Positions 38,768-60,048 of a stretch of 64,000 nucleotides of DNA are shown piece after piece. Every line of letters starts with the position of its first letter. Positions within the stretch are counted from its first letter, which is position 1. The translations under genes were made by a program, and so were the position numbers. The notes under the pieces are model-generated. The model did not search any database and was not told the origin of the DNA. It was given only the letters and a program-made list of their open reading frames with translations. The stretch comes from Escherichia coli. GTDB taxonomy: Bacteria > Pseudomonadota > Gammaproteobacteria > Enterobacterales > Enterobacteriaceae. The DNA lies in assembly GCF_002854065.1 (NCBI RefSeq), contig NZ_CP024147.1; one strand, written 5' to 3'.

Positions 38768-39247
38768 TCACGAAGATAATGATCGTATGGCTTCCTTAAG
38801 GGCTGGTGAGACACGTTGATTAAGTGCTTCATTAGCCCAGTCGGATTGCACGGGTATTCTACGCAATATCACTGTGTTTAAAGCAGCAAACAAACGATGC
38901 AGTAAATGTATAGAACCGGTCGCGATAGCTGTATCCACCCACTGGTCCGCATAGAGCCATGGGGCTGAAAATAAATCAGCCATCGCCTGAGTAGCAACTT
39001 CAATAGACGCTTTTTCTAGGCAAAGAACATCACCCTGATCGCCAAAATTATGCTCAAAGTAAGGCAATCCTTCTATATTCGTGCGAATTAGAGGAAATGG
39101 GCAGCGCCCAATGCTCAGTAAAATATAGGCGTCTATACGCTGATCATCGTCACCCACCTCTGCTGACGGCAGTTTCGCTAGTTGCCCGAGTATCATCCAA
39201 CTGGTTGATTTAGAAATGACCTTTGGGATTTGATCCTCTAAATTCAC
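38768..39247 (-). CDS. Hypothetical protein (159 aa), downstream partner of the nuclease-NTPase gene
   Basis: ORF begins at a GTG with upstream AAGAG; 70 bp after the stop of the NTPase ORF on the same strand; no recognisable motif. Confidence 0.5.
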   Translation of the reverse strand: MNLEDQIPKVISKSTSWMILGQLAKLPSAEVGDDDQRIDAYILLSIGRCPFPLIRTNIEGLPYFEHNFGDQGDVLCLEKASIEVATQAMADLFSAPWLYADQWVDTAIATGSIHLLHRLFAALNTVILRRIPVQSDWANEALNQRVSPALKEAIRSLSS

Positions 39248-39316
39248 CAGAATACTCTTTGCATCATCCCCGTGTTTAGAAATCCACGCTAATCCATCCT
39301 CAATCTTTAGATTGAC

Positions 39317-41128
39317 TTATTGGTTGTCTGGCATAGCTAAAGTAAACAATCCGTTTTTTATAGGTTCTTTATATGGCTCAATGCTGAGAAGGCCCTGAAT
39401 AATTCCAAAGCTGAAATATCTCTCTTTAGCTGCCATACGGCGTATGGCTTGAGCACCGATCATATCTCCAAGATAAGTGGCGTCTAGCCGTTCGCCAAGC
39501 CAAGCCCCGGCGTCTTGAGGGTCTTGTTCTGCCCGTAAAACCAGTTCATCACAAACAGCATCCGACAGTTCCAGAAGGTAAGCTGCGGGAACTGTCGGCA
39601 CCACAACATCTTCCCATCCTGAAAGGCGAAAAATACGAACTGCCCCCATATGTTTTAACTCATTCACTACACCACGAGCTTCGTCAGAAAGTGCGTCATA
39701 CCGCACGACAAATCCATTCGCTTTAGCAAACATTAATTCTACTGAGTGGGAGTTTGTGTCAGCTAGTGCGCAGCGTGCAAGAACCCGATAATAACGAAGA
39801 AGATCATACTGACTCTCATAGCTCTTTTGCGCAGCATCTATAAGTTCCATACCGGGTGATGGAGGAAGATAGGCGATAAGATCCGTTTTCTGGTATTGAT
39901 GATTGCGCACAATGTCATCATAAATAGTGCGAAGAACCCAAGGCGAGCGGTAGTCATCGGCGTATTCTGCTCCCTGTTGAAAAACTATCCGCTGGTCCGA
40001 GAGAATCTGTTGCGCCAGCTTAAATTCATCTAGGGACATAGGCGATGTTTTAAATACCTTCGACCGGCTACCAATTGCAGACGGAGTTCGTCCGTTTGGA
40101 TTTTTCAGTAACGCGTTGGCATGATAGGTCGTCAGAACAACCACCAGCCTGTTGCCAAAACGTATACCCGCAAGTTCCTCAAGATCAGTAGCCATTTGGG
40201 AGCCTGGTTCAACGTCGTCGATAGCAAGCATAAGCGATGGACCTTCAGTGCAGTTAGACATTCGTCTTAACCAGTTACGTGCATCATTTGAGGTTAAATT
40301 CCATTCAAATTCAGCTGCAAAAAGATTGGCCAGAGCCTGAAATAGTCCTGGTCCGGAACCTCGTAACATCAGGACAGCCAAAAGATCGCTACTTTCCGTT
40401 TTTAGCGAAATTTCACGGAGGCAACTGCTTTTTCCGCTTTGTGCATCACCCTCAATGATAGTGAAAGCTGTACCCATCACAGCAGATTCAATTACAAGAG
40501 ACGTGATTTTGCGAGGAAAAAGTAGGTTGTTGGCAAATGGATGTTCTGAATGCCCAGGCTGATCAGTTATATCAATCAGCAGCCGGGCTGTTTCTTCTCG
40601 CACAGCTGGCACCCAAGCATTAGTTTCTCGCCCCATCAAGGCTTCAATAGCCCAGCGCATGTCAGCCGCCGCCAACTTTGCAGAATTGGCGAGCATCTTG
40701 TTTACCGCTGCCGAGGCATCCTGTCCACCCGACCACTGTTGTCCATTACTTGAGTCATAAACGCGCGTATCTTTACCGTTCGTAACTACAACGAGAGGCG
40801 GACGTGGTGTTAACTGGTTAGCGTAGCTTTAAGCCTGTTCATAATCATCATGGGTCAGTGTCAGGTCTTCACGTTTCAGTTCAATAACCGCAAGTGGTCT
40901 CTCCCGATGAAAGATCAAAACATCCGCTCGCCCGTATTTTTTCCAGTGTGCGGCGCTATCTATTTTGTAAGTTCCATGGCCTAGCCGAACGGTAAAATGG
41001 CGCTGTTCGATAAGATCTTCGCGAGGAATGTTAGGAAATGCTATGTTTAGTGCTGAAGTAAGCCGGCTTTCTAGCTCGGCTTCAGTTCGAACGAGTGGAG
41101 AGCCCGTTTTTGATTGCATACTTTTCAT
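39317..41128 (-). pseudogene. PD-(D/E)xK nuclease-like N-domain fused to P-loop NTPase, interrupted by one in-frame TAA (40829-40831)
   Basis: ORF 40829..41128 (RBS GAGGA; motif D-x-ELK in ADVLIF...AVIELKRED) and ORF 39317..40696 (Walker A GDAQSGKSS, Walker B LMLAIDDVE) share one frame; the 44 codons between them are open and read SYANQLTPRPPLVVVTNGKDTRVYD, continuing the nuclease-domain pattern; no RBS before the internal ATG. Confidence 0.6.
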
Positions 41129-41771
41129 GACAAAGTATCCTCAGATATTAGTCATTGGCTAAGTTTTTATTTCACTTACTACCTTTCCAGATTAATGCGA
41201 AGACGCATAGCATTGGATTAACGGATGTGAAATGGATTATTGACAAGCAAAGTAACTTTTTCCGCATAACTATCAATTGATTAGCTGAAGAAAGGGAATA
41301 TGATTTAGTTCACTCAGGTTTCTCCAGCACGATGTGCAGATGCTAAAGCCACGATTAATTCTAAAGCAGATTAATATAACCCTGAAACAGGCAGAGCAGG
41401 AAACGCCTGTATCGGAAGTATGCCGCATGACCGCCCCCGATAACTCACACCGAATGCCAATAGGAATGTCAGCCCCTCGCTCATAGCAGACCTTCGGGCC
41501 TGGCAGCTTAGTGCCAAGAACACTCCCCAGTGGCCTATCGGCAAGTGTAAGCGTACGAATATCGCCTCCGTGCTACACAGTAGACGACTACATTTTCGAC
41601 GCATGAGCAAATCGTGGCTTTAGTTGTCTAAAACCAGTGCTTCAACACTTTTTTTTCACCAAACAACGCATCGTAGAAGCACTAGTTGGATTCCACAGGC
41701 TTACGTAAACAAATAGCGCTAACGGCTAAGCTGGTCCATTAGACGCTCAATCATCCTCGCAAGAGGTATAG

Positions 41772-42788
41772 TTACTCGATGCCCAGAACAAATGACATTA
41801 ACAAATCTAGCTTTATTTTCATGTCTGCAGTTGCCGAAGCCGCATTAACCTGCGGCAAGGCAAGCCATCTGTTTACGGCATCGGAGTTGAATCTCTGCTG
41901 CCTTAGGAACGAAGATACCGACGTTTCCCAGGAAAAGATTTCACCCCCACAAAGTTCGACGGGCTGCTGAGAGCAGGCTCGCTGAATAGTCATTCCCAAA
42001 CCGACGTAGCGGAGAAGCTCACGTCGCACATTCTCATCTTTTTGCATGACTGGTGCATCCAGTTTCGGTTTCGGTCCAAAGTACACTCCGGTAGTACCTG
42101 GTTGTAATGTCGGGTCACTGGAAAAATAAACCGGAACTCCCATCAATTTAAATGCCGCTGTCAAAATTTCATAACTAATGTCTGATCGACTCCAACGGCC
42201 CATGTGGGGTGGTACTTTTGGCAAACCGACCAGATCATCGCCACGGCTTACAATCGATACCCCCTCAACTGGCACGGATGGTTGCATTCTGAATACAGCG
42301 TCAGAATCGATTTCCCAGCCAGCTTCGCTTAACAATCGCAAAAAATTACCAGCAGCCACGCACGATGATTCACTCCACTCAACACAACCGATGCGCAGCT
42401 TGTCCCGCTGACCGAACTGTCCTGTTCGAAATAATTCGAGGTATCTGTCGCGATTGGAACTATTAACGGCATATGCATCAATCACAGTAGGCGGTACAGG
42501 TTTACTTGCAGATTCAGGATTTTGTTGAAGCAAATCTGGGCTTATGAAAAACACTATAGCGAAGATCGCCACTGCGCCAGATGCTCTTAACCACCCATTA
42601 AATTTTACTTCAAGGAAACCAGGCAGAACTGCACCAATACATCCGGCAGCCAGAGCCAGAACTATTCGGTAAACTATATATTGATAAGGTGTGGGATTGG
42701 GGGTTGTGATAGTAGTAATGAGTATGGCAACTATCGCCACAACCGCAAAACCATACCTAATGAACTTGTCTGTCCTTACACTGCTCAT
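41772..42788 (-). CDS. Hypothetical membrane protein (338 aa, N-terminal transmembrane segments plus soluble domain)
   Basis: Hydrophobic helices FAVVAIVAILITTITT, IVYRIVLALAAGCIGAVLPGF, AVAIFAIVFFISP; no recognisable catalytic motif. Confidence 0.55.
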   Translation of the reverse strand: MSSVRTDKFIRYGFAVVAIVAILITTITTPNPTPYQYIVYRIVLALAAGCIGAVLPGFLEVKFNGWLRASGAVAIFAIVFFISPDLLQQNPESASKPVPPTVIDAYAVNSSNRDRYLELFRTGQFGQRDKLRIGCVEWSESSCVAAGNFLRLLSEAGWEIDSDAVFRMQPSVPVEGVSIVSRGDDLVGLPKVPPHMGRWSRSDISYEILTAAFKLMGVPVYFSSDPTLQPGTTGVYFGPKPKLDAPVMQKDENVRRELLRYVGLGMTIQRACSQQPVELCGGEIFSWETSVSSFLRQQRFNSDAVNRWLALPQVNAASATADMKIKLDLLMSFVLGIE

Positions 42789-43218
42789 TTTAATTTTGAC
42801 ACCTGAATCAAGTCCATAAGTCGAAAATCCCGCATTAAACTGTTCCCCAATGATTAATACAGCTTTATACGCGTAATGAGGCTATTGGCGTTGGTGATGA
42901 GTGTAACTGTCCATTCCTCGCTCAGAGCAACCTTCTGCTCCAAGAGTCAGTCTACAGTGTGCAAAAAACAGACGTTGATCACAATATCGAGTTAATCATT
43001 CGGCCGTTTATCACTCCCATTGAAAAATTTCTCAGTATCCAATATACCAATGTTGAGGGCTTCCCTCTTACATCTCAAAAGGATAACTATCATGGGTCTT
43101 AAACCTGGTCCAAAACCAATTGCTAAATCGACAGGAAAACCAGATCAACGCCGACGAGATAATAAAGATACTCCTGGCAACACTCCGGGACTAAAGCCAA
43201 GTAAGTCCACCGGGAAGT

Positions 43219-43254
43219 AAAAAAATCAGGGTATAAATAAGTTATTTATACCCT
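43219..43254 (-). terminator. Intrinsic terminator of the three-gene helicase cassette
   Basis: Perfect 12-bp stem AGGGTATAAATA / TATTTATACCCT with 3-nt loop, followed on the minus strand by a 7-T run; 16 bp after the helicase stop. Confidence 0.75.
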
Positions 43255-43269
43255 GACTACATATCCAGT

Positions 43270-45468
43270 CTACTGAAGGTGTTTCTGCAGCCAGGTGCAC
43301 GTTCCTTCTATATCATACGCCTGTGCCCCATACCCTTTAGCAAGCAAAGTCTCTGGTAAATACTCGTCATATTTATCCAGATACTTGTCAGGAACAACTG
43401 CAGCAAGCTCAAACTCTGAAGGTAACCCCGACAATAGCATTTTCTTAAGTACACGCTGGACAGAGGCAACGCCTGAGTCCTCTACCTCTATCACACCTGC
43501 AAATGAACTGGCTTTAAAGCCACAACGTATAAGCAGGGACGTAATTGTATTGACAATTTTATCCCCCATCCACGGGATCACGTAGCAGTTCTGACCACTG
43601 GCAATAAAACAGTCATTGTGTAGATTGTAGCGTTGGAAGTTGTCACTTCCTTCCGCAAAGAGGCTTCTGGCTGCGGCATCAGCATAATCGACTCTCTTGT
43701 TGCCTACCGCGATACGGTAATCATTTTCCCTGTAGATAGCGAGCATCTCCTGGCGAACAACATCATGAACAGACATCCCGCTACCACTGAATAGTGGTGG
43801 CTGACCGCCTTTAGTCGCCTCAACATAGATAACCTTTTTTTCAACCTCGATCTCTGTCACTTTCCAGCGCCGTCCGCCGAAGATGATGTGCTGCTCCGGC
43901 AAAAGTGGGGAGTCTACAGGCACTGTGCCAAGAGTTCGGTTTCCCGTTACAATGCGAAACTCCTCAGGTGTATTGAATACGGCATAAAACGTGTAGTGAT
44001 TAGTCAGCTTCTCCCCCTCAGCCCCGACAACTATTTCACCGCTGGCTAGTTGACTGAGCAGGCCACATGTCCCCATATGTTTAAGCAGACTTTTAAAGTC
44101 ATTTATATCCACATTCCGGAACGGACCTGTCTGGCAAAGTTGTGACCAGAGTTGATCGGCACGAACACCTCCCCATTGCGCAGTAATAGCCAGGATCTGG
44201 TGTAGTAGTGTGGAGTAATGTTTCTGCCGGATATCTGCAGGCTCGAACCAGCGCTTAGAGATCATCAACCTGATCATTGCCATCGCCTGAACCAACTGCA
44301 GCCGTAAATGATCCACAATGCTGCTGGTTGCGGTAAGTTCAGGTTCAGTAATTAACATTCTCAGCACCGATGGGGAATCGCGCCGCCCTGAACGTCCCAT
44401 GCGTTGACGCAGACTGGAAACAGAATGCGGAGGTGTCACTTGTATGACAGACTGCACCTTACCAATATCAATACCCAGCTCCAGCGTCATTGTACAAACA
44501 GCGGTTGTGGGCAAATTCCCTTTCTGCAGTCGGGCTTCAAGCGCCTCACGTAACTCCCTGGCAAGGGAGCCATGATGAGGAAAGAATTCATTAGGAACGA
44601 CATTTGCTTCACACATGTCGCTCAGTATTGCCGCTATGCTTTCAGTACGCTTTCGACTGTTAGCAAAGACCAGGTGGGAATCGCCACGACAGAGCCTGAA
44701 AATATCCGCGCAGACGAGCTGTTCAGCAGAGCTCTGGAGCTCTTCCCCTTTTTCGAGCACCCGCTCAAGATAACCTTTAACCTGAACTTGTAGTGTAGCG
44801 GTGCTATTACTGTCTGTTACCGTTTCACAAGGTAATCTCTTATCCGGACGCAATAATTCTGGCACTTTTTCCAGCTCTCCCAGAGTGGCACTCAACGCGA
44901 CACGGGGAACTGGATTTAACTGGCGTCCCAGCACATGGTCAATTCTATTAAGCAGCGAAAGCAGTTGTATACCACGCTCTGAGCCAATAAAAGCGTGGAA
45001 CTCATCAATAACAATGTATGCCACTGAAGAAAACGCCTGTTTGAGCCAACCCAATGAGTTTATGAGCAAAGACTCAAGTGATTCAGGTGTGATAAGTAAG
45101 ATACCTGACGGGCTTGTCCGTGCTTTATTCTTTTTGCTTTGTGGTACATCCCCGTGCCAGGGCGTCACTTGCATTTCCAGGGCTTCCCCCAGGCTCTCAA
45201 GACGACGGTGCTGATCGTTAATCAATGCCTTCAACGGACTGATATAGATAATGCCAAATCCACCAGTGAGATCTGCAATCGCTGAACAGGCAGGAAGAAA
45301 GAAAGCCTCTGTTTTACCCGCAGCTGTACCTGCACTAATTAGTACATCACGATCACGGGCTAAAATTGCCGGAATAGAGCTCTCCTGCAAGGGCCTTAAT
45401 GATGACCAGCCCTGCTTATAAATCCACTTACGGACACGGGGATCGAGACTATTGTAGGCACTGCTCAT
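43270..45468 (-). CDS. Superfamily-2 DExH-box helicase with C-terminal extension; third gene of Shango-like cassette (SngC-like)
   Basis: 732 aa; Q-motif LRPLQ, motif I SAGTAAGKTEAF, motif Ia SPLKAL, motif II VIDEFHAF, motif III SAT, motif VI QRMGRSGRR; start overlaps the upstream stop by 4 bp. Confidence 0.85.
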   Translation of the reverse strand: MSSAYNSLDPRVRKWIYKQGWSSLRPLQESSIPAILARDRDVLISAGTAAGKTEAFFLPACSAIADLTGGFGIIYISPLKALINDQHRRLESLGEALEMQVTPWHGDVPQSKKNKARTSPSGILLITPESLESLLINSLGWLKQAFSSVAYIVIDEFHAFIGSERGIQLLSLLNRIDHVLGRQLNPVPRVALSATLGELEKVPELLRPDKRLPCETVTDSNSTATLQVQVKGYLERVLEKGEELQSSAEQLVCADIFRLCRGDSHLVFANSRKRTESIAAILSDMCEANVVPNEFFPHHGSLARELREALEARLQKGNLPTTAVCTMTLELGIDIGKVQSVIQVTPPHSVSSLRQRMGRSGRRDSPSVLRMLITEPELTATSSIVDHLRLQLVQAMAMIRLMISKRWFEPADIRQKHYSTLLHQILAITAQWGGVRADQLWSQLCQTGPFRNVDINDFKSLLKHMGTCGLLSQLASGEIVVGAEGEKLTNHYTFYAVFNTPEEFRIVTGNRTLGTVPVDSPLLPEQHIIFGGRRWKVTEIEVEKKVIYVEATKGGQPPLFSGSGMSVHDVVRQEMLAIYRENDYRIAVGNKRVDYADAAARSLFAEGSDNFQRYNLHNDCFIASGQNCYVIPWMGDKIVNTITSLLIRCGFKASSFAGVIEVEDSGVASVQRVLKKMLLSGLPSEFELAAVVPDKYLDKYDEYLPETLLAKGYGAQAYDIEGTCTWLQKHLQ

Positions 45469-46781
45469 AGTCTGAAATTCGCCAGGCCATCATCGTCATC
45501 ACTTTCCTCCACAATGGCATCCCCCATATCGCTGGGCTTGTCTTCTTCAATCGCCACCCCCTCAATGAGAGCTTGCCAGTTCATCGTACTGTTTTGTTCC
45601 AGCACAGCCAGCATATCCAGAAAACCTTTTATGGTATTGCGGGGAGTTCGAAAGTAAGCATCTCCGATGGTTTTGCTGCAGTGATGCAGAAACCCGGTCA
45701 GAGCCTCATCTGGCACCAGATAATTTGCGGGATCTCCACCAGCATAAACATGACGAAGATTTTTCAGTAAAATATACAGTTCCTCAGGAGTGAGGCTGGC
45801 AAGATGTAGCGTGGGAGACGAGTAGTCAATCACGCCAGCTTTCTGTGCGAATCGATTTTCTGCCAGACGCGACTGGAGCGCTTCATAGCTGTAGAGCCCC
45901 TTACGTGGATCGAAAAGAAACTCTGGCGTCCCCCCGAGGATAAAACCAATATTTTCGGCGGAGCCTTGCAGGCAGTCATTCAGGATCCGCAAAATTTGTT
46001 CGTAGTTGGCCGTTCTCGCTTGCGTATTATTCAACTTGAAGAGGTTCACCATCTCGTCGAGGCTAACTAAAAGTCCGGCATAGCCTGCCTGACGGACAAA
46101 AAGGCTCATCAACTTCAAAGAGTCATAGAACGAGGCGTCTGAGATAATCGTTCGGACGTCAAGATCATTACGGGCATCAGTTTTTGTGGTGTACTCGCCC
46201 CGCAACCAGCGAATAGCATTGGATTTTAAGGTTTCGTTATCCTGCTCATGCCCGCGCCAGAATGCGTCAATGACCTTCGCAAAGTCATATCCACCCACCA
46301 TATCTGACAAAGCAGCAAGGCGTTTATGAATAACGGATGAGACCTGGGAGCCGTTCGCATCAGCTTCCTTCCTTGCCTCAGTAACAAACCTTTCCACAAC
46401 GCTAAGTAATGCATTGCCATCTGGTTTGTTTCTGGTGGACATATTTTTCATAAGCTCTGAGTAGAGATTACGAGCCTGACCTCCCGATGAGTGAATACGT
46501 CTGTCGGGAGAAAGGTCTGCACTGACCGTGACCAGCTTTTTCTCTAACGCAATAGACCGTACAACACTTAAAAAGAACGTTTTGCCGGAACCATACTCAC
46601 CAATGATAAGTCTGAAGCTTGCCCCGCCATCAGCAATCCGTTCAATATCCTGATGGAGGGCGGTTATCTCATTCACGCGGCCAACCTGGATATGCTGAAT
46701 ACCTATCCTTGGCGTTACTCCCGACTTAAGTGACTGAATAATAGCGTCGCGCTCTTTCACTCTTATACGTGTTACAGACAT
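45465..46781 (-). CDS. P-loop ATPase; second gene of Shango-like cassette (SngB-like)
   Basis: 438 aa; Walker A GEYGSGKTFFL, Walker B LLVSLDEM; start 3 bp after the upstream stop. Confidence 0.85.
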   Translation of the reverse strand: MSVTRIRVKERDAIIQSLKSGVTPRIGIQHIQVGRVNEITALHQDIERIADGGASFRLIIGEYGSGKTFFLSVVRSIALEKKLVTVSADLSPDRRIHSSGGQARNLYSELMKNMSTRNKPDGNALLSVVERFVTEARKEADANGSQVSSVIHKRLAALSDMVGGYDFAKVIDAFWRGHEQDNETLKSNAIRWLRGEYTTKTDARNDLDVRTIISDASFYDSLKLMSLFVRQAGYAGLLVSLDEMVNLFKLNNTQARTANYEQILRILNDCLQGSAENIGFILGGTPEFLFDPRKGLYSYEALQSRLAENRFAQKAGVIDYSSPTLHLASLTPEELYILLKNLRHVYAGGDPANYLVPDEALTGFLHHCSKTIGDAYFRTPRNTIKGFLDMLAVLEQNSTMNWQALIEGVAIEEDKPSDMGDAIVEESDDDDGLANFRL

Positions 46782-46784
46782 TCA

Positions 46785-49094
46785 CTAACCCTCTAATTCT
46801 TTGGCTATTTCCAGGTCAACCCAAATGTGATCATCAGCATCTTCCAGCACTGGTGCATCAACCACCGCATAGGACCAATCGTTAATCACCTCAAGCGCAC
46901 CGCCGAGCATCAGGTTCCAGTTACTACACAACTCTGTCGCCTCTTTTCTGGACCATTGTTCTTTCTCCAGCAACCTGCGATAAAGTTGGCTATGAGCGGA
47001 GTCAAGCCCCCCTTCCCCGGTTAATGAGGCTGGAGCGCTTTCTGGTTGTTCTGGTTCTTCTTCAGTGAAAATCGAGTTCAGTAATTTACGAACATCATCA
47101 GTGGCAGATTCGTGGCGGGCAAGTACATTGGCATCCAGCGTAAACCCTGCCGTCGACTGATTAGCTGGTACAGATGAAACGAGAGCAGTTTCAGTTACGG
47201 AATGCTGATGGATATTGCTTGATACGGATGAGGGATCCAACCCCAGGCTTGTATAAATCTTCTCAAGCTGTTTGATTTCGGCAGGCGTAATTCTGCCGTC
47301 AGAGCAAGCGACACTAACGATAACCTTACCCACAGCTGATTTTTCCGCTGCACCGAGTAACTCAATCCGGCTTTTCATTCCCGTCATATTCGCCGGGGTA
47401 TGAAGCTGCCACGTTAAATATGCGTGCAGAGAGCGCTTTTCATCATCGCTGAAGCTGACATTGTTGTTGATGGCATTCTCAAGCACTTTCTGTTCGGCTT
47501 GATCGAAAGAATTGTCAATCAAGGCGACTACCGAACCTAATCGGAGCGTCAATACAGCTGTGATAAATTCAGGAGAAGGAGAGAAGCGGCCACTTTCACC
47601 AGCAGGGAATAAAACAAGAACACCATCGACATCTGCTTTTACGTGGTGGTAATAGGGGTCAGGAGCCAGGCAGTACCCCATTTTCTGTGCAAAGGCCTGC
47701 ATCAAGTCGGCCTCTTTTTTGTTGATCTTTGCCGGACAGGTAGCATTCATGTGTGACCAGAAGTCAGCAACTGAAACTACTCCCCCCTTACTGAGGATCG
47801 CGTCATCAGCCCAGCGTTTGAATGCACTTAATATTTTATCTGCGCTTTCGTTAACGATTTCTGAAGGCAGCAACAAAATTGCAACGGTATCATTTGCTGA
47901 AGTGCCTTTTCTACCAAGGTAACGACTGTAAGCATCCAGTTCATCTGTGCATATATCAGCAAGAGTCATAAGCTTCTGAACAGGGCCTTTCAATGCACTT
48001 GGATCAGGCAAGTCAGGAACAGGAAGCCGAATACCTCTCAAACTGGGACTTGCAGGCGTGTAATCTAAACGCAGACGCGCTTTATTCGGCTTCACTACCA
48101 TCCCTTCACCGTATTTAAGGGTGTAACGCCGTTTAAATAGTGCAGCAAATTCTTTCGCACAGCGGCGGGCGGGGGTTCGTAATGAGTATTCAGTATGGTT
48201 TGTCACCCACGTCAGAGCCAGATCCGCTGGAACCGGGGCTCCTGCATCAACTGTCTTTGCCAGGATTAACCTGAACTGCATGCTATTGCTGAACTCTGAA
48301 TCATCGCTGAGAGCTGCTGCAAGATTTTCGTTCGGACGAAGAATGGACATCGCTTCAAGTAACTGGGACGAGTAGTTCCGGAATGATCTGTTTTCATTGA
48401 AAACAGATCTGAGACGGCAGATCTCTTTGAAAAGAGAATAGAACTCATCGTCAGATATATTGCTGTCCCTGCTGTCAACAAGCGCCCGTCTTTCCAGACC
48501 ATACAGATAAATAAAAACGTAACCAATTGGGCAAGAAGTGTCACATCTGTCGCTGGTAAGCCAACTCAGGTACGCGCCACGTGCTTCAGGTGAAAGTGAG
48601 GAATAACTGGGCCAATACCCTAATGAACTATCTTCGTAGATGTAAGATGTGGGGTATATCTTGAGCGTGTCGTCAATTAGCGATGCCTCGCTACTATCAT
48701 CATAATAACCGCCTGAGTTATGCCCGACAGGGTTCATTCGCTGTCCAAGATAGAAGTAGCCGCCGGTAATCTCTACCCCACCGACTGTGATCACCTCCCC
48801 CGGTAAAATCCAGCGAGCCAAAGCACCGGTAGTTTTTGAGAAATTCTGGCGTTGAGTGGCTGTTATACTGTATTCGGCATTCCGCCCGCCACTTAGTGTA
48901 AACGTAGCCAGATTGTCATCTTCGCTGTCCTCGTTGTGCATTACAGACTGATTTTTTTTGTTATTAGCAAGCCATTCTTTAGGTGGTGCTTTCACAGGAG
49001 CGGAAGTATAAGAGCCCGCGGACTTAGTTTTCTTCTTTTTGAAAAAAAGAATATAAATCAAATAAATCGCTACTATAAATATCCATAACTCCAT
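46785..49094 (-). CDS. Membrane-anchored TerB-N/TerB-C-type protein; first gene of Shango-like cassette (SngA-like)
   Basis: 769 aa; N-terminal TM helix MELWIFIVAIYLIYILFF then basic linker KKKKTK; size, position and architecture match the TerB-domain component of the TerB-ATPase-helicase triad (assignment by recognition, not by HMM). Confidence 0.7.
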   Translation of the reverse strand: MELWIFIVAIYLIYILFFKKKKTKSAGSYTSAPVKAPPKEWLANNKKNQSVMHNEDSEDDNLATFTLSGGRNAEYSITATQRQNFSKTTGALARWILPGEVITVGGVEITGGYFYLGQRMNPVGHNSGGYYDDSSEASLIDDTLKIYPTSYIYEDSSLGYWPSYSSLSPEARGAYLSWLTSDRCDTSCPIGYVFIYLYGLERRALVDSRDSNISDDEFYSLFKEICRLRSVFNENRSFRNYSSQLLEAMSILRPNENLAAALSDDSEFSNSMQFRLILAKTVDAGAPVPADLALTWVTNHTEYSLRTPARRCAKEFAALFKRRYTLKYGEGMVVKPNKARLRLDYTPASPSLRGIRLPVPDLPDPSALKGPVQKLMTLADICTDELDAYSRYLGRKGTSANDTVAILLLPSEIVNESADKILSAFKRWADDAILSKGGVVSVADFWSHMNATCPAKINKKEADLMQAFAQKMGYCLAPDPYYHHVKADVDGVLVLFPAGESGRFSPSPEFITAVLTLRLGSVVALIDNSFDQAEQKVLENAINNNVSFSDDEKRSLHAYLTWQLHTPANMTGMKSRIELLGAAEKSAVGKVIVSVACSDGRITPAEIKQLEKIYTSLGLDPSSVSSNIHQHSVTETALVSSVPANQSTAGFTLDANVLARHESATDDVRKLLNSIFTEEEPEQPESAPASLTGEGGLDSAHSQLYRRLLEKEQWSRKEATELCSNWNLMLGGALEVINDWSYAVVDAPVLEDADDHIWVDLEIAKELEG

Positions 49095-57958: not shown

Positions 57959-59635
57959 TCAGTCCGCCGGATGGCGGTAAGGCAGCAGTTCATCCAGCCG
58001 GGACGCCGTCCATGACGGCAGCTTCTCCAGCACATCTCGCAGCCAGACTACTGGCTCCAGACCGTTCAGCCTCGCCGTGTGCAGCAGCGTCAGCAGCTCC
58101 GCCAGCCGCTCTCCTCCCCGCAGCGAACCCGCGAACAGCCATGACTTCCGCCCCTGCGCCACCGGACGCATCATCTACTCACTCCGGTTGTTGTCCAGCG
58201 GTACCCGTCCGTCATTCAGGTATGTTTCCAGCGCCGGCCAACGCTTCAGGGCATACGTCACCGCACCGTGCAGCCTGCCACCCGGCGCGCTCGTCTTTTC
58301 CGTCGCCCTCAGCCAGCTGTGGAACGCCTCCATCTGCGGCTTCGCGTACCGCCGTCGCCATCGCCATTTCTGCTCTGCCGGACGCTGCCGGATGGTCTGC
58401 TCCAGGATATACAGCGCCCGTATCTGTTTCAGCGCCTCCTTCGCCCCCGGACTGCCGTTCATTCTGTACAGCTCCATGAACTTTCTGCGCACGTGCGCCA
58501 TGCACCCCGCCTCACAGATACCCGGTGCCGCCGGAGGGGCCCCTTCCTGCCCGTCACGGAACAGCGCCCGGTAACCGGCATAACCGTCAGCCACCAGAGT
58601 CCCCGACCACCCGCTCAGCATCTCACACGCATACTGCCCCGCACGCCCCGGACGGCAGTCGTACACCACGATGTCCCGGGCACTGCCCGCCGCACTCACG
58701 TATGCTCACAGGTACCCTTTCCGGACTTTCCCTTTCCGCGTATCCAGTATCTGCAGCGGCGTCTCGTCCGCCTGCAGCACCGGTTGCCTGAGCAGGTCAC
58801 GTTTCAGGGCTGCCGCCAGCGGCGACAGCACCGCCGCCGTCGGCCCGAACCAGTCCGTCAGCGTGCTTTCCGGCAACTGTACCCCTTCACGGGCGTATAT
58901 CTTCTGCTGCCGCTGCAGTGACAGGTGATCCAGCACCTTCGCGGTCACCACCTGCGCCAGCAGACCCGGACCCGGCTGCCCTTTGTCGATGACTGCCGGC
59001 GGCAGCACGGCACTGTGCACCGTGTCGCAGCACGGGCAACTGTACTGCGGTCTCACGGTCCGTTTCACCACGAAGTGTGCCGGTACATACTCCAGCACCT
59101 CATTCACCTCGTCGCGGATATGTCGCATTTCACTTCCGCAGTCCGGACAGGTGCTACCGGTCTCAGGCATGAGTACGGTTTCCTGTCGCGGCAGGTGTGC
59201 CGGCAGGGGGTGACGGGCCGGCTTCTTCCCGGTTTTCTCCTTCACCGGCAGCAGGTCGCTCAGTTGCCGGGTGATATCAGCCTCATCGCTGGCCGCGTCC
59301 TCATCTGCCAGTGGTTTCTGGCTGGCCGGGAGGCGCTCGCTTTTACGCCCGAAGCGCCACTGGTGGGCCAGCTTCAGGGCCTCCTCCAGCTCCCGGATGC
59401 GCTGTTCATATGCGGTTTTTTCTGCCTGCATGGCGGCATTAAGGTCATGGATACGCTGTTCCAGCGTGGTGGTGACGGTATTCAGGTTATGGAGGCGCTG
59501 TTCCAGCGTGGTGTTGACGGTATTCAGGTTATGAAGGCGCTGCTCATATTCGCATGCCTGTGCCGTCAGCAGCGCTGTTGCCAGACGGCGCAGTTCATCG
59601 GGGTTTTGTGTGGTGTTCAGGATGTCATCTGTCAT
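57959..59635 (-). pseudogene. IS66-family TnpC transposase split into three ORFs by frameshifts
   Basis: ORFs 58706..59635 (N-terminal coiled-coil and zinc-finger CPDCG...CPCC), 58175..58699 and 57959..58174 together cover a TnpC-like protein in different frames. Confidence 0.75.
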
Positions 59636-59709
59636 GCAGCCATGATGACAGAGGCGGGCGGGAACATCCTGATAAGAAGCTGCCCGTATTATGATTCTGG
59701 CACAGGAGG

Positions 59710-60048
59710 TTATTCAGTCCACCTCTGCAGGGGGCTGGCAGAGAGACGCAGCCAGTCAACGCCGGCGGTAAGCCAGGCGAACTGTTCCGCCGTGAGCGAC
59801 CAGGTGGTGTCGCCGTCGCGGGGCCAGCGGAAGGCGCCCTGGTGCAGGCGGCGGGTGCAGAGCCAGACGCCGTGGCGGTCCCACATCAGGAGTTTCATGC
59901 GGGTGCGTTTTTTCCCGGTGAAGAGGAAGGCTTCGCCTTCCCGGGGCGGATGCCCGGCGGCCTGAGTGGCGAGTCGCGTCAGGGAGTCGATGCCGGCGCG
60001 TATGTCAGCAGGCTCGCGGACGAGCCAGAGGGAATGAGGGCTCAGCAC
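59710..60048 (-). CDS. IS66-family Orf2 (TnpB)
   Basis: 112-aa ORF MLSPHSLWLVREPADIRAGIDSL...RMKLLMWDRHGVWLCTRRL... typical IS66 Orf2. Confidence 0.8.
   Translation of the reverse strand: MLSPHSLWLVREPADIRAGIDSLTRLATQAAGHPPREGEAFLFTGKKRTRMKLLMWDRHGVWLCTRRLHQGAFRWPRDGDTTWSLTAEQFAWLTAGVDWLRLSASPLQRWTE

What the first reader, a model, noticed from the sequence alone, without database searches (positions are those of the whole stretch)
41772..42788. Orphan 338-aa membrane protein between the two defence-like loci
A standalone minus-strand gene encodes two or three N-terminal transmembrane helices followed by a ~250-aa soluble domain with no motif I can recognise. It lies between the nuclease-NTPase locus and the Shango-like cassette inside the island. 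Single membrane proteins in defence islands are frequently abortive-infection effectors or sensors, so this is a candidate uncharacterised component or standalone system.
Basis: inference. Interest (0 to 1): 0.45.

Follow-up and report, generated by a model that had tools for sequence, protein, structure and literature searches.

The report
Mobile periplasmic membrane-anchored orphan gene
The 338-aa gene is real and is a self-contained, horizontally mobile cassette for an inner-membrane-anchored protein whose conserved part most likely faces the periplasm; it recurs in defence islands and once in a prophage but belongs to no described family, so it is a reasonable but unproven candidate for an envelope-level anti-phage factor.

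Summary
The ORF (window 41772-42788, minus strand) is real, intact and under purifying selection. The window is E. coli; the gene lies in the tRNA-Arg(CCT) island between a PADLOC-confirmed Shango operon (SngABC) and an HsdR-N-domain gene that is a pseudogene in this strain.

It is not a Shango component. About 300 E. coli genomes carry Shango without it, and about 87 carry it without Shango. The same ~1.4-kb cassette also occurs in a Salmonella island and in a lambdoid prophage.

The protein is a chimera of three parts:
- A 3-TM anchor, homologous to the C-terminal TM module of a phage accessory protein family (phrog_5814). That family sits in the Z hotspot of a P2-like phage but is unrelated to Fun(Z).
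- A ~148-aa α/β core with an invariant Cys pair, found in 286 protein clusters.
- A helical C-terminal extension.

Topology rules, the conserved cysteines and signal-peptide variants place the core in the periplasm. Its fold resembles LytR_C (VirR/Cei), but sequence membership fails. There is no Pfam, NCBIfam or PADLOC hit.

Of 14 contexts examined, 7 hold recognised defence genes and 2 more hold probable ones. Function is inferred only: most likely envelope-level phage exclusion rather than a cytoplasmic Abi effector. Interest is moderate.

The parts
41772..42788 (-). CDS of the 338-aa protein (stop codon included)
   Evidence: ORF list. Annotated hypothetical protein in RefSeq. dN/dS 0.17-0.47.
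42534..42788 (-). aa 1-85: 3-TM membrane module (TM 9-27, 37-55, 65-83), homologous to the C-terminal TM module of phrog_5814 proteins
   Evidence: Hydropathy. PHROG hit E 2.7e-16. BLASTP to the P2-like phage protein E 2e-11. hhalign probability 98.2%. At least 449 clusters carry the module.
42054..42494 (-). aa 99-245: conserved alpha/beta core domain (beta-alpha-beta-beta-alpha-beta-beta). It has the invariant Cys135/Cys143 pair flanking a 'WSE' loop, and the 'PPHxGxW' and 'GxYFGPxP' motifs. The fold is LytR_C-like.
41775..42053 (-). aa 246-338: helical C-terminal extension with a second near-invariant Cys pair (C272/C280). It is present in about half of the family.
   Evidence: AF2 secondary structure. 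A1 conservation. Architecture table.
42789..42908 (-). Non-coding relic of the 5' part of a phrog_5814-type gene (matches aa 104-145 of P0023, interrupted by a stop). It records the recombination that made the chimera.
   Evidence: tblastn. In-frame translation. Upstream alignment conserved across four contexts.
41489..42929 (-). Mobile cassette unit (~1.4 kb) that recurs, at ~91% identity, in otherwise unrelated flanks
   Evidence: blastn of L032 and L003 against the window gives window 41506-42922. The break of Shango-shared sequence is at ~42958.
42916..42928 (-). Upstream copy of the motif GCTNTGAGCGAGG (degenerate hairpin) at the cassette border
   Evidence: The fold is weak.
41475..41487 (-). 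Downstream copy of the motif GCTNTGAGCGAGG (degenerate hairpin) at the cassette border
   Evidence: The canonical Salmonella copy folds at -19 kcal/mol, z -4.85.
43224..43258 (-). Terminator-like hairpin plus T run directly after the sngC stop. It separates the Shango operon from the cassette.
   Evidence: 16-pair stem, T run. (15-nt perfect inverted repeat).

Best explanation
The gene is an autonomous, horizontally mobile single-gene cassette.

Its product is anchored in the inner membrane by three TM helices with the N-terminus in the cytoplasm. It displays two domains in the periplasm: a disulfide-clamped alpha/beta domain with a LytR_C-like fold, and a disulfide-stapled helical bundle.

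The TM anchor was acquired by recombination from a phage accessory membrane protein (phrog_5814 type). It replaced the single-TM anchor seen in the 288-aa relatives, so the functional determinant is the periplasmic domain.

The domain has no conserved catalytic residues across the family. It is therefore most likely a binding module.

My best-supported reading is that it acts at the cell envelope as a phage-exclusion or protection factor of the kind carried by prophage morons. It would bind an envelope component, such as peptidoglycan, or an incoming phage entry component, such as a tail-associated peptidoglycan hydrolase or ejection protein, and block infection at or before genome entry.

Shown:
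- gene reality and anatomy
- independence from Shango
- mobility
- the fold

Inferred:
- periplasmic topology (strong inference)
- a role in defence (context only)
- the binding target and the step blocked (speculative)
For: Independence from neighbours:
- Full-length SngC is in 452 E. coli genomes, but the SngC-target junction is in only 155.
- The target is in 242 genomes, about 87 of them with Shango replaced by IS66 elements.
- Shango in AR_0055 has other downstream genes.
- A terminator-like hairpin follows sngC.

Mobility:
- The same 1.4-kb unit is found in a Salmonella island next to AbiGi.
- It is also found in a lambdoid prophage, downstream of the O-like and P-like replication genes and upstream of NinB.
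- Only 2 of 100,044 species-representative genomes carry a close relative.

Topology:
- K+R bias is 6 versus 1 for the query.
- 100 of 135 family members place the core outside the cytoplasm.
- The Cys135/Cys143 pair is invariant in 85 diverse sequences, and C272/C280 is conserved in at least 90%.
- Two family members (P0030, P0055) start with what I read by eye as signal peptides instead of TM anchors.

The anchor is interchangeable:
- Family members have 1, 2 or 3 unrelated TM helices.
- TM-module dN/dS is 0.65-0.9 against 0.05-0.35 for the core.

Fold:
- AF2 core model pLDDT is 90.3.
- 2m5y's homologues all carry PF13399. Both chains were the top two hits of a LytR_C-like consensus query.
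- PMC11832169 describes VirR (Rv0431) and Cei (Rv2700) as LytR_C solo-domain proteins for cell-envelope integrity.
- Foldseek finds several 'LytR/CpsA/Psr regulator C-terminal domain' proteins at E ~1e-7.

Context:
- Seven of 14 contexts hold recognised defence genes within about 10 kb: Shango, AbiGi, Hachiman, SIR2, AbiJ/Abi_C, NACHT and Mrr.
- Two more hold probable ones: an AAA_15/AAA_21 ATPase pair, and a ThiF/E1 operon.
Against: - No experiment or literature links any family member to phage resistance.
- There is no match in PADLOC, and the PHROG matches are to families of unknown function.
- There is no hit in 50,697 phage genomes. Only one genuine prophage context was found, so it is not a typical phage superinfection-exclusion gene.
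- Three contexts (L013, Caballeronia, Kosakonia) show no defence genes nearby. One context (P0028) is T6SS/muramidase-related.
- Topology was inferred with a crude hydropathy and positive-inside script, not a trained predictor. 28 of 135 members scored the other way.
Confidence: 0.4

Rival explanations
1. Abortive-infection sensor-effector. The periplasmic domain senses envelope damage or a phage component. The 3-TM module then oligomerises and depolarises the membrane, killing the infected cell.
For: - The 3-TM module is a conserved, widespread family of its own: at least 449 clusters, 38-62% identity across phyla.
- It is attached to various soluble domains on either side of the membrane.
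- In a P2-like phage it occupies the Z hotspot, where P2 itself carries the anti-phage gene fun(Z).
- Other copies sit next to Hachiman, CHAT or DUF4238 genes.
Against: - Most relatives of the periplasmic domain use unrelated 1- to 3-TM anchors, so the family's conserved function cannot reside in this TM module.
- TM-module dN/dS is 0.65-0.9 in the 338-aa lineage.
- The cytoplasmic N-terminal domain and the small partner gene of phrog_5814 cassettes are missing here.
Confidence: 0.15
2. Orphan immunity or protection protein against periplasm-acting toxins, such as T6SS or bacteriocin peptidoglycan hydrolases. It would be carried on mobile islands like other orphan immunity genes.
For: - The domain is periplasmic, disulfide-bonded and non-catalytic.
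- One homologue (P0028) lies beside a DUF2345 (VgrG-type) fragment, two Muramidase ORFs and an Imm33 gene.
Against: - Only 1 of 14 contexts shows this.
- No toxin gene is adjacent in E. coli, Salmonella, Pectobacterium, Paraburkholderia or the prophage.
- The gene in P0028 is separated from the T6SS fragment by ~700 bp and follows a different operon.
Confidence: 0.12
3. [quoted passage not shown] It would merely hitch-hike on mobile DNA.
For: - The fold is closest to VirR/Cei-type LytR_C domains, and the architecture is the same: TM anchor, linker, extracytoplasmic domain.
- Some contexts lack defence genes.
Against: - The distribution is extremely sporadic: 242 of 5426 E. coli genomes and 2 of 100,044 species representatives.
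- Identity between Enterobacterales and Burkholderiales copies is high (73-85%), which indicates recent transfer.
- It recurs in defence islands and prophage cargo positions.
- There is no sequence-level membership in LytR_C.
Confidence: 0.15
4. A fourth, accessory component of the adjacent Shango system, or of the HsdR-N-domain gene.
For: It lies 481 bp downstream of sngC on the same strand, both in E. coli and in a Salmonella island.
Against: - About 297 E. coli genomes have full-length SngC without it, and about 87 have it without SngC.
- A terminator-like hairpin lies after sngC.
- The Salmonella copy has AbiGi, not the HsdR-N gene, downstream.
- More distant homologues never co-occur with Sng genes.
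- The HsdR-N gene is a pseudogene in this window while the target is intact.
Confidence: 0.03

Closest known systems
LytR_C solo-domain proteins (Pfam PF13399), e.g. M. tuberculosis VirR (Rv0431, PDB 2M5Y) and Cei (Rv2700; 6Q10 is the M. marinum counterpart)
   Different: There is no sequence-level relationship: 0 of 85 members hit PF13399, and hhalign probability is 6.8%. This family has an invariant disulfide-closed beta1-alpha1 loop, an N-terminal helix and often a C-terminal helical bundle. It occurs in Gram-negative periplasm on mobile DNA, not as a conserved actinobacterial cell-wall gene, and no LCP partner is evident.
phrog_5814 proteins: two-gene cassette of ~85-97 aa plus ~233-270 aa. 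It is found in the Z (fun) hotspot of the P2-like phage NC_070905, on a Cronobacter plasmid, and in islands next to DUF4238, Hachiman or CHAT genes.
   Same: The target's aa 7-85 are homologous to their C-terminal 3-TM module (PHROG E 2.7e-16, BLASTP 2e-11, hhalign 98.2%). The DNA upstream of the target's ATG is a decayed piece of such a gene. Both occupy accessory-cargo positions.
   Different: The target lacks their ~150-aa cytoplasmic N-terminal domain and the small upstream partner gene. It carries instead a periplasmic C-terminal domain that they lack. The function of phrog_5814 is itself unknown.
Phage and prophage superinfection-exclusion or envelope-protection proteins (T4 Imm/Sp, P22 SieA, HK97 gp15, T5 Llp). 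This comparison is from general knowledge and was not tested here.
   Same: Both are small, single-gene, membrane-anchored or periplasmic accessory proteins on mobile elements that act without a cytoplasmic enzymatic effector. One copy of the target cassette is cargo in a lambdoid prophage downstream of the replication genes and upstream of NinB.
   Different: No sequence or annotated-family similarity to any of them was found (PHROG hits are 'unknown function'). The target is mostly in chromosomal islands, not phages. No exclusion phenotype is known.
Shango (SngA TerB-domain protein, SngB ATPase, SngC helicase)
   Same: Physical neighbour on the same strand in 155 E. coli genomes and in Salmonella.
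   Different: It is not matched by any Sng model. Co-occurrence is facultative in both directions, and it is a separate transcription unit.

Membership tests
Shango defence system | Protein matches one of the SngA, SngB or SngC models | tested here: not met
   PADLOC gives 0 families for the target. The three upstream genes hit SngC, SngB and SngA at E 7e-277, 1e-187 and 6.5e-103.
Shango defence system | Obligate co-occurrence with the other components | tested here: not met
   SngC at >=80% coverage is in 452 genomes, the junction with the target in 155, and the target in 242. Loci L014 and L015 show each without the other.
LytR_C (PF13399) | Significant match to the Pfam model, or profile-profile similarity | tested here: not met
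   Pfam scan of the query and of 85 family members gave no LytR_C hit even at E <= 0.1. hhalign of A2 against a 105-sequence VirR-type LytR_C alignment gave probability 6.8% in the wrong register.
LytR_C (PF13399) | LytR_C three-dimensional fold | tested here: met
LytR_C (PF13399) | Membrane-anchored, extracytoplasmic location | tested here: inconclusive
   The positive-inside count favours the periplasm (query 6 vs 1; 100 of 135 members). There are invariant Cys pairs. Two members appear, read by eye, to start with signal peptides. No trained topology predictor or experiment was available.
LytR_C (PF13399) | Functional or physical link to LCP (LytR-CpsA-Psr) transferases | not testable with these tools
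   None of the examined neighbourhoods contains an LCP gene. Interaction cannot be assessed computationally here.
phrog_5814 (P2-like Z-locus membrane protein) | C-terminal 3-TM module | tested here: met
   Target aa 7-85 match profile positions 150-228 of 230, E 2.7e-16. hhalign of A3 against the phage protein gives probability 98.2%, E 3.4e-14.
phrog_5814 (P2-like Z-locus membrane protein) | ~150-aa N-terminal soluble domain and an upstream small partner gene (phrog_31842 or phrog_6502) | tested here: not met
   Only a stop-interrupted relic of aa 104-145 remains upstream. There is no small partner ORF. The partners in P2-like, Cronobacter, L011 and Pseudoalteromonas cassettes were identified.
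P2 Fun(Z) phage-exclusion protein | Sequence similarity to NP_046777.1 (528 aa, P-loop) | tested here: not met
   BLASTP best E is 1.4 for the target and 0.086 for the 233-aa P2-like protein. The genuine fun(Z) is annotated at NC_001895 15675-17261.
Known anti-phage defence proteins (PADLOC-DB v2.0.0) | Match to any of 5027 models | tested here: not met
   0 families at E <= 0.01 for the target. 0 families at E <= 0.1 for the phrog_5814-type relatives P0023 and the Cronobacter and Sinorhizobium proteins; the P. aeruginosa protein gave only a non-significant RT-Toprim_I-C hit at E 0.044.
Superinfection-exclusion (Sie-type) proteins | Encoded by phages or prophages | tested here: inconclusive
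   There is one genuine lambdoid prophage copy. There is no hit in 50,697 phage records. The other three IMG/VR hits are the E. coli island itself.
Superinfection-exclusion (Sie-type) proteins | Blocks phage adsorption or genome entry without killing the cell | not testable with these tools
   Requires plating, adsorption and DNA-entry assays.

The most novel reading that the evidence does not exclude
The periplasmic LytR_C-like module defines a new class of single-gene, envelope-acting anti-phage or anti-invader proteins in Gram-negative bacteria. The class is absent from current defence catalogues. It would be disseminated as a small cassette between defence islands and prophage cargo hotspots, possibly with the help of the conserved GTCCGCT-NTGAGCGAGG-AGCGGAC hairpin that marks cargo borders in at least 84 viral contigs.
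Probability: 0.2. Interest if true: 0.7.

Novelty: new variant of a known kind. Interest (0 to 1): 0.45.

Why it matters
Almost all catalogued defence systems act in the cytoplasm on nucleic acids, nucleotides or membranes from within. Envelope-level protection is known mainly from phage-encoded exclusion genes and is poorly represented in defence-island surveys.

This family is a concrete, cheaply testable candidate:
- 286 clusters
- no Pfam, NCBIfam or PADLOC model
- a confidently modelled periplasmic domain
- recurrent defence-island and prophage-cargo context

If it protects, it would add a periplasmic binding-module mechanism and show that LytR_C-like folds are used outside cell-wall assembly. 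If it does not, it marks a class of non-defence cargo that inflates 'guilt by association' predictions.

The chimeric origin also gives a natural domain-swap experiment: the anchor comes from a phage accessory protein and the ectodomain from a 1-TM relative.

Tried and rejected
1. Fun(Z) lead. The phrog_5814 homologue sits between the G and FI genes of a record named 'Escherichia virus P2', so I first took it for Fun/Z, which is a validated anti-phage system (PMC8594841). Checking NC_001895 showed the real fun(Z) is an unrelated 528-aa P-loop protein. The claim was dropped. Only 'same hotspot position' is retained.

3. Sequence-level tests for LytR_C membership were negative (Pfam on 85 members, hhalign). 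A profile search of PDB sequences found nothing.

4. A catalytic-site idea (Ser139/His195/Glu140) was rejected. These residues are not conserved in the 85-sequence alignment; only C39, C47 and W62 of the core are invariant.

5. PADLOC, NCBIfam and Pfam on the target and on neighbours of homologues gave nothing for the target.

6. An Rfam scan of 40900-43400 found no RNA family.

7. Literature searches for the protein accessions and for the hairpin sequence found no papers.

8. The search for related loci with the diverse alignment A2 failed because no conserved stretch was available. With A1 it reaches only close relatives.

9. No conserved partner gene was found. The upstream and downstream genes differ in every context.

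10. Promoter scan: only one weak sigma-70-like site overlaps the start codon, and the number of sites is not above the shuffled expectation. The promoter is not identified.
Full report

Yes. The six-frame ORF list shows a 338-aa ORF at 41772-42788 on the minus strand with an ATG start. Translating further upstream in frame shows stops and no alternative start codon.

The window is Escherichia coli. The segment 41500-43270 is 100% identical to E. coli AMSCJX02, where the ORF is annotated as hypothetical protein WP_032318120.1. The gene lies in an island that starts at tRNA-Arg(CCT), at window 34593-34667, next to a tyrosine integrase.

The three genes upstream on the same strand are a textbook Shango operon:
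- SngC, 43270-45468, PADLOC E 7e-277
- SngB, 45465-46781, E 1e-187
- SngA, 46785-49094, E 6.5e-103

The downstream gene is a 786-aa 'type I restriction enzyme HsdR N-terminal domain-containing protein' in intact relatives.

A simple hydropathy scan finds three TM segments (aa 9-27, 37-55, 65-83) and nothing hydrophobic afterwards. Pfam, PADLOC and NCBIfam give no hit.

Pairwise dN/dS against six orthologues is 0.17-0.47. This is a selected protein-coding gene.

**2. It is not part of either neighbouring locus.**

In 5426 complete E. coli genomes:
- the gene occurs in 242
- full-length sngC occurs in 452
- the sngC-target junction is intact in only 155

So about 297 genomes have Shango without the gene. 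An example is AR_0055, where Shango sits in a tRNA-Phe island with unrelated downstream genes. About 87 genomes, mainly O26/O103/O111-type STEC, keep the gene and the HsdR-N gene while IS66 elements replace Shango. In those genomes the match ends at window 43207.

Sequence shared by all Shango loci ends at about window 42958.

A 15-bp perfect inverted repeat followed by a T run lies immediately after the sngC stop (43224-43258).

In Salmonella the gene follows Shango, but its other neighbour is AbiGi.

In this window the HsdR-N gene carries two nonsense substitutions relative to the intact copy (positions 40831 and 39319). The target is unchanged.

**3. It is a small mobile cassette.**

blastn shows that only window ~41506-42922 (the gene, ~134 bp upstream and ~266 bp downstream) is shared at ~91% identity with two other places: the Salmonella island, and an IMG/VR contig (L032).

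L032 is a genuine lambdoid prophage. Its genes in order are:
- a CI-like repressor
- an O-like initiator
- a P-like helicase loader
- a 417-aa MBL-fold ORF
- the target homologue
- a 293-aa ORF
- NinB
- the Q antiterminator
- an endolysin

So the cassette is cargo in the region downstream of the replication genes and upstream of NinB.

The other three IMG/VR hits are the E. coli island itself.

A scan of one genome for each of 100,044 species finds only two close relatives, in Kosakonia pseudosacchari and Caballeronia mineralivorans. There is no hit in 50,697 phage records. On plasmids, apart from one full-length 99.7% match in a 1.4-Mb E. coli record filed as a plasmid, only the TM module matches.

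Copies in Pectobacterium, Paraburkholderia and Caballeronia are 73-85% identical to the E. coli protein over the shared part. This implies recent transfer between orders.

**4. The protein is a chimera of three modules.**

*(a) TM anchor, aa 1-~95.* The 5.8-billion-protein search shows that aa 1-100 are 74-78% identical to the C-terminus of 250-aa proteins (P0023-25). The 288-aa relatives (P0008 and others) share only aa ~99-338 and have a different, single-TM N-terminus.

The 120 nt upstream of the ATG still align with codons 104-145 of the 250-aa type but contain a stop. This upstream stretch is conserved in four different genomic contexts. So the 338-aa form arose by joining the 3' half of a 250-aa-type gene to the ectodomain of a 288-aa-type gene.

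The 250-aa type is PHROG family phrog_5814 (P0023, E 4e-59). The target's aa 7-85 hit the same profile at E 2.7e-16.

A member of phrog_5814 (233 aa), preceded by an 85-aa gene (phrog_31842), lies between the tail-fibre-assembly gene G and the sheath gene FI of the P2-like genome NC_070905. That is the 'Z' cargo region, where P2 itself has fun(Z) (PMC3091744; NC_001895 annotation).

I initially mistook this protein for Fun(Z). The real Fun(Z) is a 528-aa P-loop protein with no similarity to it or to the target.

Direct comparison confirms the TM-module homology: BLASTP 2e-11 and hhalign probability 98.2%.

The module is also a widespread family in its own right. At least 449 clusters were found, often as 90-210-aa proteins, with no Pfam assignment except one cluster carrying DUF4019. 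It is attached to N-terminal cytoplasmic domains or to other C-terminal domains.

*(b) Core domain, aa 99-245.* A profile search of 1.84 billion representatives finds 286 clusters at E <= 1e-3, of which 114 are at E <= 1e-30. The conserved stretch is profile positions ~70-213.

In the 174 retrieved sequences scanned, the core is preceded by 1, 2 or 3 hydrophobic segments (45, 50 and 46 cases), often with a Pro/Thr/Gln-rich linker. It is followed either by nothing or by a ~93-aa extension.

Two members (P0030, P0055) start with what I read by eye as a signal peptide. P0055 adds a lipase-like domain.

In an 85-sequence alignment the only invariant residues are the two cysteines (C135 and C143 of the query) and W158. 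The Ser and His of the 'WSE' and 'PPH' motifs are not universally conserved. I therefore do not propose an enzyme.

*(c) C-terminal extension, aa 246-338.* It is helical and has a second near-invariant Cys pair, C272/C280.

**5. Topology.**

The query has 6 K/R on the N-terminal and loop-2 side against 1 on the other side. This places the N-terminus in the cytoplasm and the C-terminal domain outside.

The same crude positive-inside count places the core outside in 100 of 135 family members, inside in 28, with 7 ties.

Three things together make a periplasmic, disulfide-bonded ectodomain the well-supported reading:
- the invariant i/i+8 Cys pairs
- the apparent signal-peptide variants
- the 1-TM relatives with strongly basic N-termini

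It remains inferred, because no trained predictor or coordinates were available.

**6. Fold.**

A core-only model built on 85 diverse sequences reached pLDDT 90.3 and pTM 0.86. Its topology is helix, then beta-alpha-beta-beta-alpha-beta-beta.

Both top hits are LytR_C domains:
- A LytR_C-like consensus query retrieves exactly these two chains as its best PDB hits.
- Nearly all database homologues of the 2m5y fragment carry PF13399.
- The eLife paper PMC11832169 describes VirR (Rv0431) and Cei (Rv2700) as membrane-associated 'LytR_C solo-domain' proteins. They are needed for cell-envelope integrity, and their LytR_C domain mediates interaction with LCP proteins.

Foldseek against AFDB50 independently returns six 'LytR/CpsA/Psr regulator C-terminal domain-containing' proteins (E 1.7e-7 to 7e-6, TMq 0.62-0.67). 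It also returns DUF881 proteins and many uncharacterised membrane-anchored proteins.

At the sequence level, membership fails. There is no PF13399 hit in any of the 85 members. hhalign against a VirR-type alignment gives 6.8% probability.

So the domain has a LytR_C-like fold, but I do not file it as a LytR_C family member.

**7. Genomic contexts of homologues (14 independent ones).**

Recognised defence genes within about 10 kb (seven):
- E. coli: Shango.
- Salmonella: Shango and AbiGi.
- The P0012 island: integrase, AlpA, DUF3987 and Hachiman HamA plus helicase.
- Paraburkholderia: NOV_C, SIR2_2, AAA_15.
- P0022: a 1306-aa SIR2_2 protein, AbiJ/Abi_C and a UvrD helicase.
- P0027: a resolvase and SIR2_2.
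- P0033: a 2153-aa NACHT protein and Mrr.

Probable defence genes (two):
- Pectobacterium: CcdAB and an AAA_15/AAA_21 ATPase pair.
- P0029: a ThiF/E1 operon and an HTH-M78 pair.

Prophage cargo: L032.

T6SS-type context: P0028, with DUF2345, Muramidase and Imm33.

No defence genes seen:
- L013, between core genes.
- Caballeronia, between a sugar ABC transporter and a two-component system.
- Kosakonia, near an IS3 element.

No neighbouring gene is conserved across contexts. The gene stands alone.

**8. What it most likely does.**

Shown:
- a mobile single-gene cassette
- a chimeric membrane-anchored protein
- a LytR_C-like, cysteine-clamped core conserved in 286 clusters
- enrichment in defence and mobile contexts

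Strongly inferred: periplasmic location.

Inferred: the conserved function is a periplasmic binding activity, for two reasons. The anchors are interchangeable, and the anchor in this lineage evolves almost neutrally (dN/dS 0.65-0.9, against 0.05-0.35 for the core).

I therefore favour an envelope-level protective role (confidence about 0.4 for the whole statement). That would be phage exclusion at or before genome entry, by binding peptidoglycan or an incoming entry component.

The other rivals are:
- an orphan immunity protein against periplasm-acting toxins (about 0.12)
- a conflict-unrelated envelope-homeostasis factor (about 0.15)
- a Shango accessory (about 0.03)

**9. Novelty and score.**

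The family has no Pfam, NCBIfam or PADLOC model. Its two PHROG matches are 'unknown function'. UniProt lists the identical protein as uncharacterised (rank 1). No paper mentions the accessions.

The kind of thing, a small membrane-anchored accessory protein on mobile DNA, is known. The domain and its combination are not described. I rate it 'new variant of a known kind' with interest 0.45. It is a good, cheap experimental candidate, but its function rests on context alone.

**10. Side observation.**

The motif GCTNTGAGCGAGG occurs exactly twice in the 64-kb window, at 41475-41487 and 42916-42928. Both copies are on the gene's strand, at the two borders of the cassette. Chance expectation is 0.32 matches, and 5 of 100 shuffles reach two.

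Its canonical form is a 7-bp hairpin, GTCCGCT-NTGAGCGAGG-AGCGGAC. The Salmonella copy folds at -19 kcal/mol (z -4.85). The window's copies are degenerate.

It also lies upstream of the phrog_5814 cassette in the P2-like Z region, and downstream of the Pectobacterium homologue.

Exact matches to an extended 20-nt version occur in 84 IMG/VR contigs. My rough estimate of the chance expectation for this scan is one or two matches. Flanking sequence diverges immediately on both sides, and 33 unrelated ORF families lie next to it.

It is not in Rfam, and no searched paper contains it. It may mark cargo borders in prophage hotspots and defence islands. I did not resolve what it is.

Noticed in passing
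window 41475-41487 and 42916-42928 (- strand); L003:9861 and 11459; L025:5413; L002:11160; L034-L113: A conserved hairpin element, GTCCGCT-NTGAGCGAGG-AGCGGAC (7-bp stem, 10-nt loop), flanks the cassette on both sides in E. coli and Salmonella. It also lies upstream of the cargo cassette in the Z region of a P2-like phage. Exact matches to the 20-nt version occur in 84 IMG/VR contigs. Flanks diverge immediately on both sides, and 33 unrelated ORF families lie next to it. It is not in Rfam or in any searched paper. It may be a cargo-border or recombination element, or a terminator-like element.
   Followed up: partly
window 38768-41128 (- strand): The 786-aa 'HsdR N-terminal domain' gene next to the target is a pseudogene in this strain. 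Of 5 substitutions relative to the intact copy in AMSCJX02, two create stop codons (window 40831 and 39319; C->T on the coding strand). They split the gene into ORFs of 99, 459 and 159 aa.
   Followed up: yes
L025:5650-6612 (NC_070905); L016:4094-5300; L011:9542-10753; L022:4172-5213: A recurrent two- or three-gene cassette: 56-57 aa (optional), 81-97 aa (phrog_31842 or phrog_6502) and 233-270 aa (phrog_5814, with a cytoplasmic domain and a C-terminal 3-TM module). It replaces fun(Z) in the Z region of a P2-like phage. It also sits on a Cronobacter plasmid and in islands next to DUF4238, Hachiman or CHAT genes. It has no PADLOC model and may itself be an undescribed accessory or defence cassette.
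   Followed up: partly
window 42958-43423: The last ~150 bp of sngC plus ~310 bp downstream are shared at ~90-91% identity with the 3' end region of a differently annotated 'ATP-dependent helicase' in several hundred further E. coli genomes. This suggests a common 3' module or recombination tract among helicase-containing defence loci. A 66-aa ORF on the opposite strand (43020-43220) lies in this tract. Its counterpart in AR_0055 is annotated as a hypothetical protein.
   Followed up: no
L032:6003-7256: In the lambdoid prophage that carries the cassette, the gene just upstream encodes a 417-aa protein with a weak match to the Avs1a MBL-fold hydrolase model (E 2e-8, far below the curated cut-off). 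It is possibly another cargo or defence gene in the same region.
   Followed up: no
window 37452-38591: An IS3-family element (overlapping orfA and orfB ORFs on the - strand) lies immediately downstream of the HsdR-N pseudogene. It is annotated as a frameshifted IS3 transposase in the matching RefSeq genome.
   Followed up: no
window 58001-60000 and 36001-37000: Two strong composition anomalies: 62-66% GC at 58-60 kb and 28.6% GC at 36-37 kb, against ~50% elsewhere. The low-GC kilobase begins just after the island integrase. Neither was examined.
   Followed up: no
L027:4575-12623: The metagenomic homologue P0028 follows a five-gene operon of unknown proteins. It precedes a DUF2345 (VgrG-type) fragment, two Muramidase ORFs and an Imm33 gene. 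This is the only context that hints at a link to periplasm-acting toxins.
   Followed up: no
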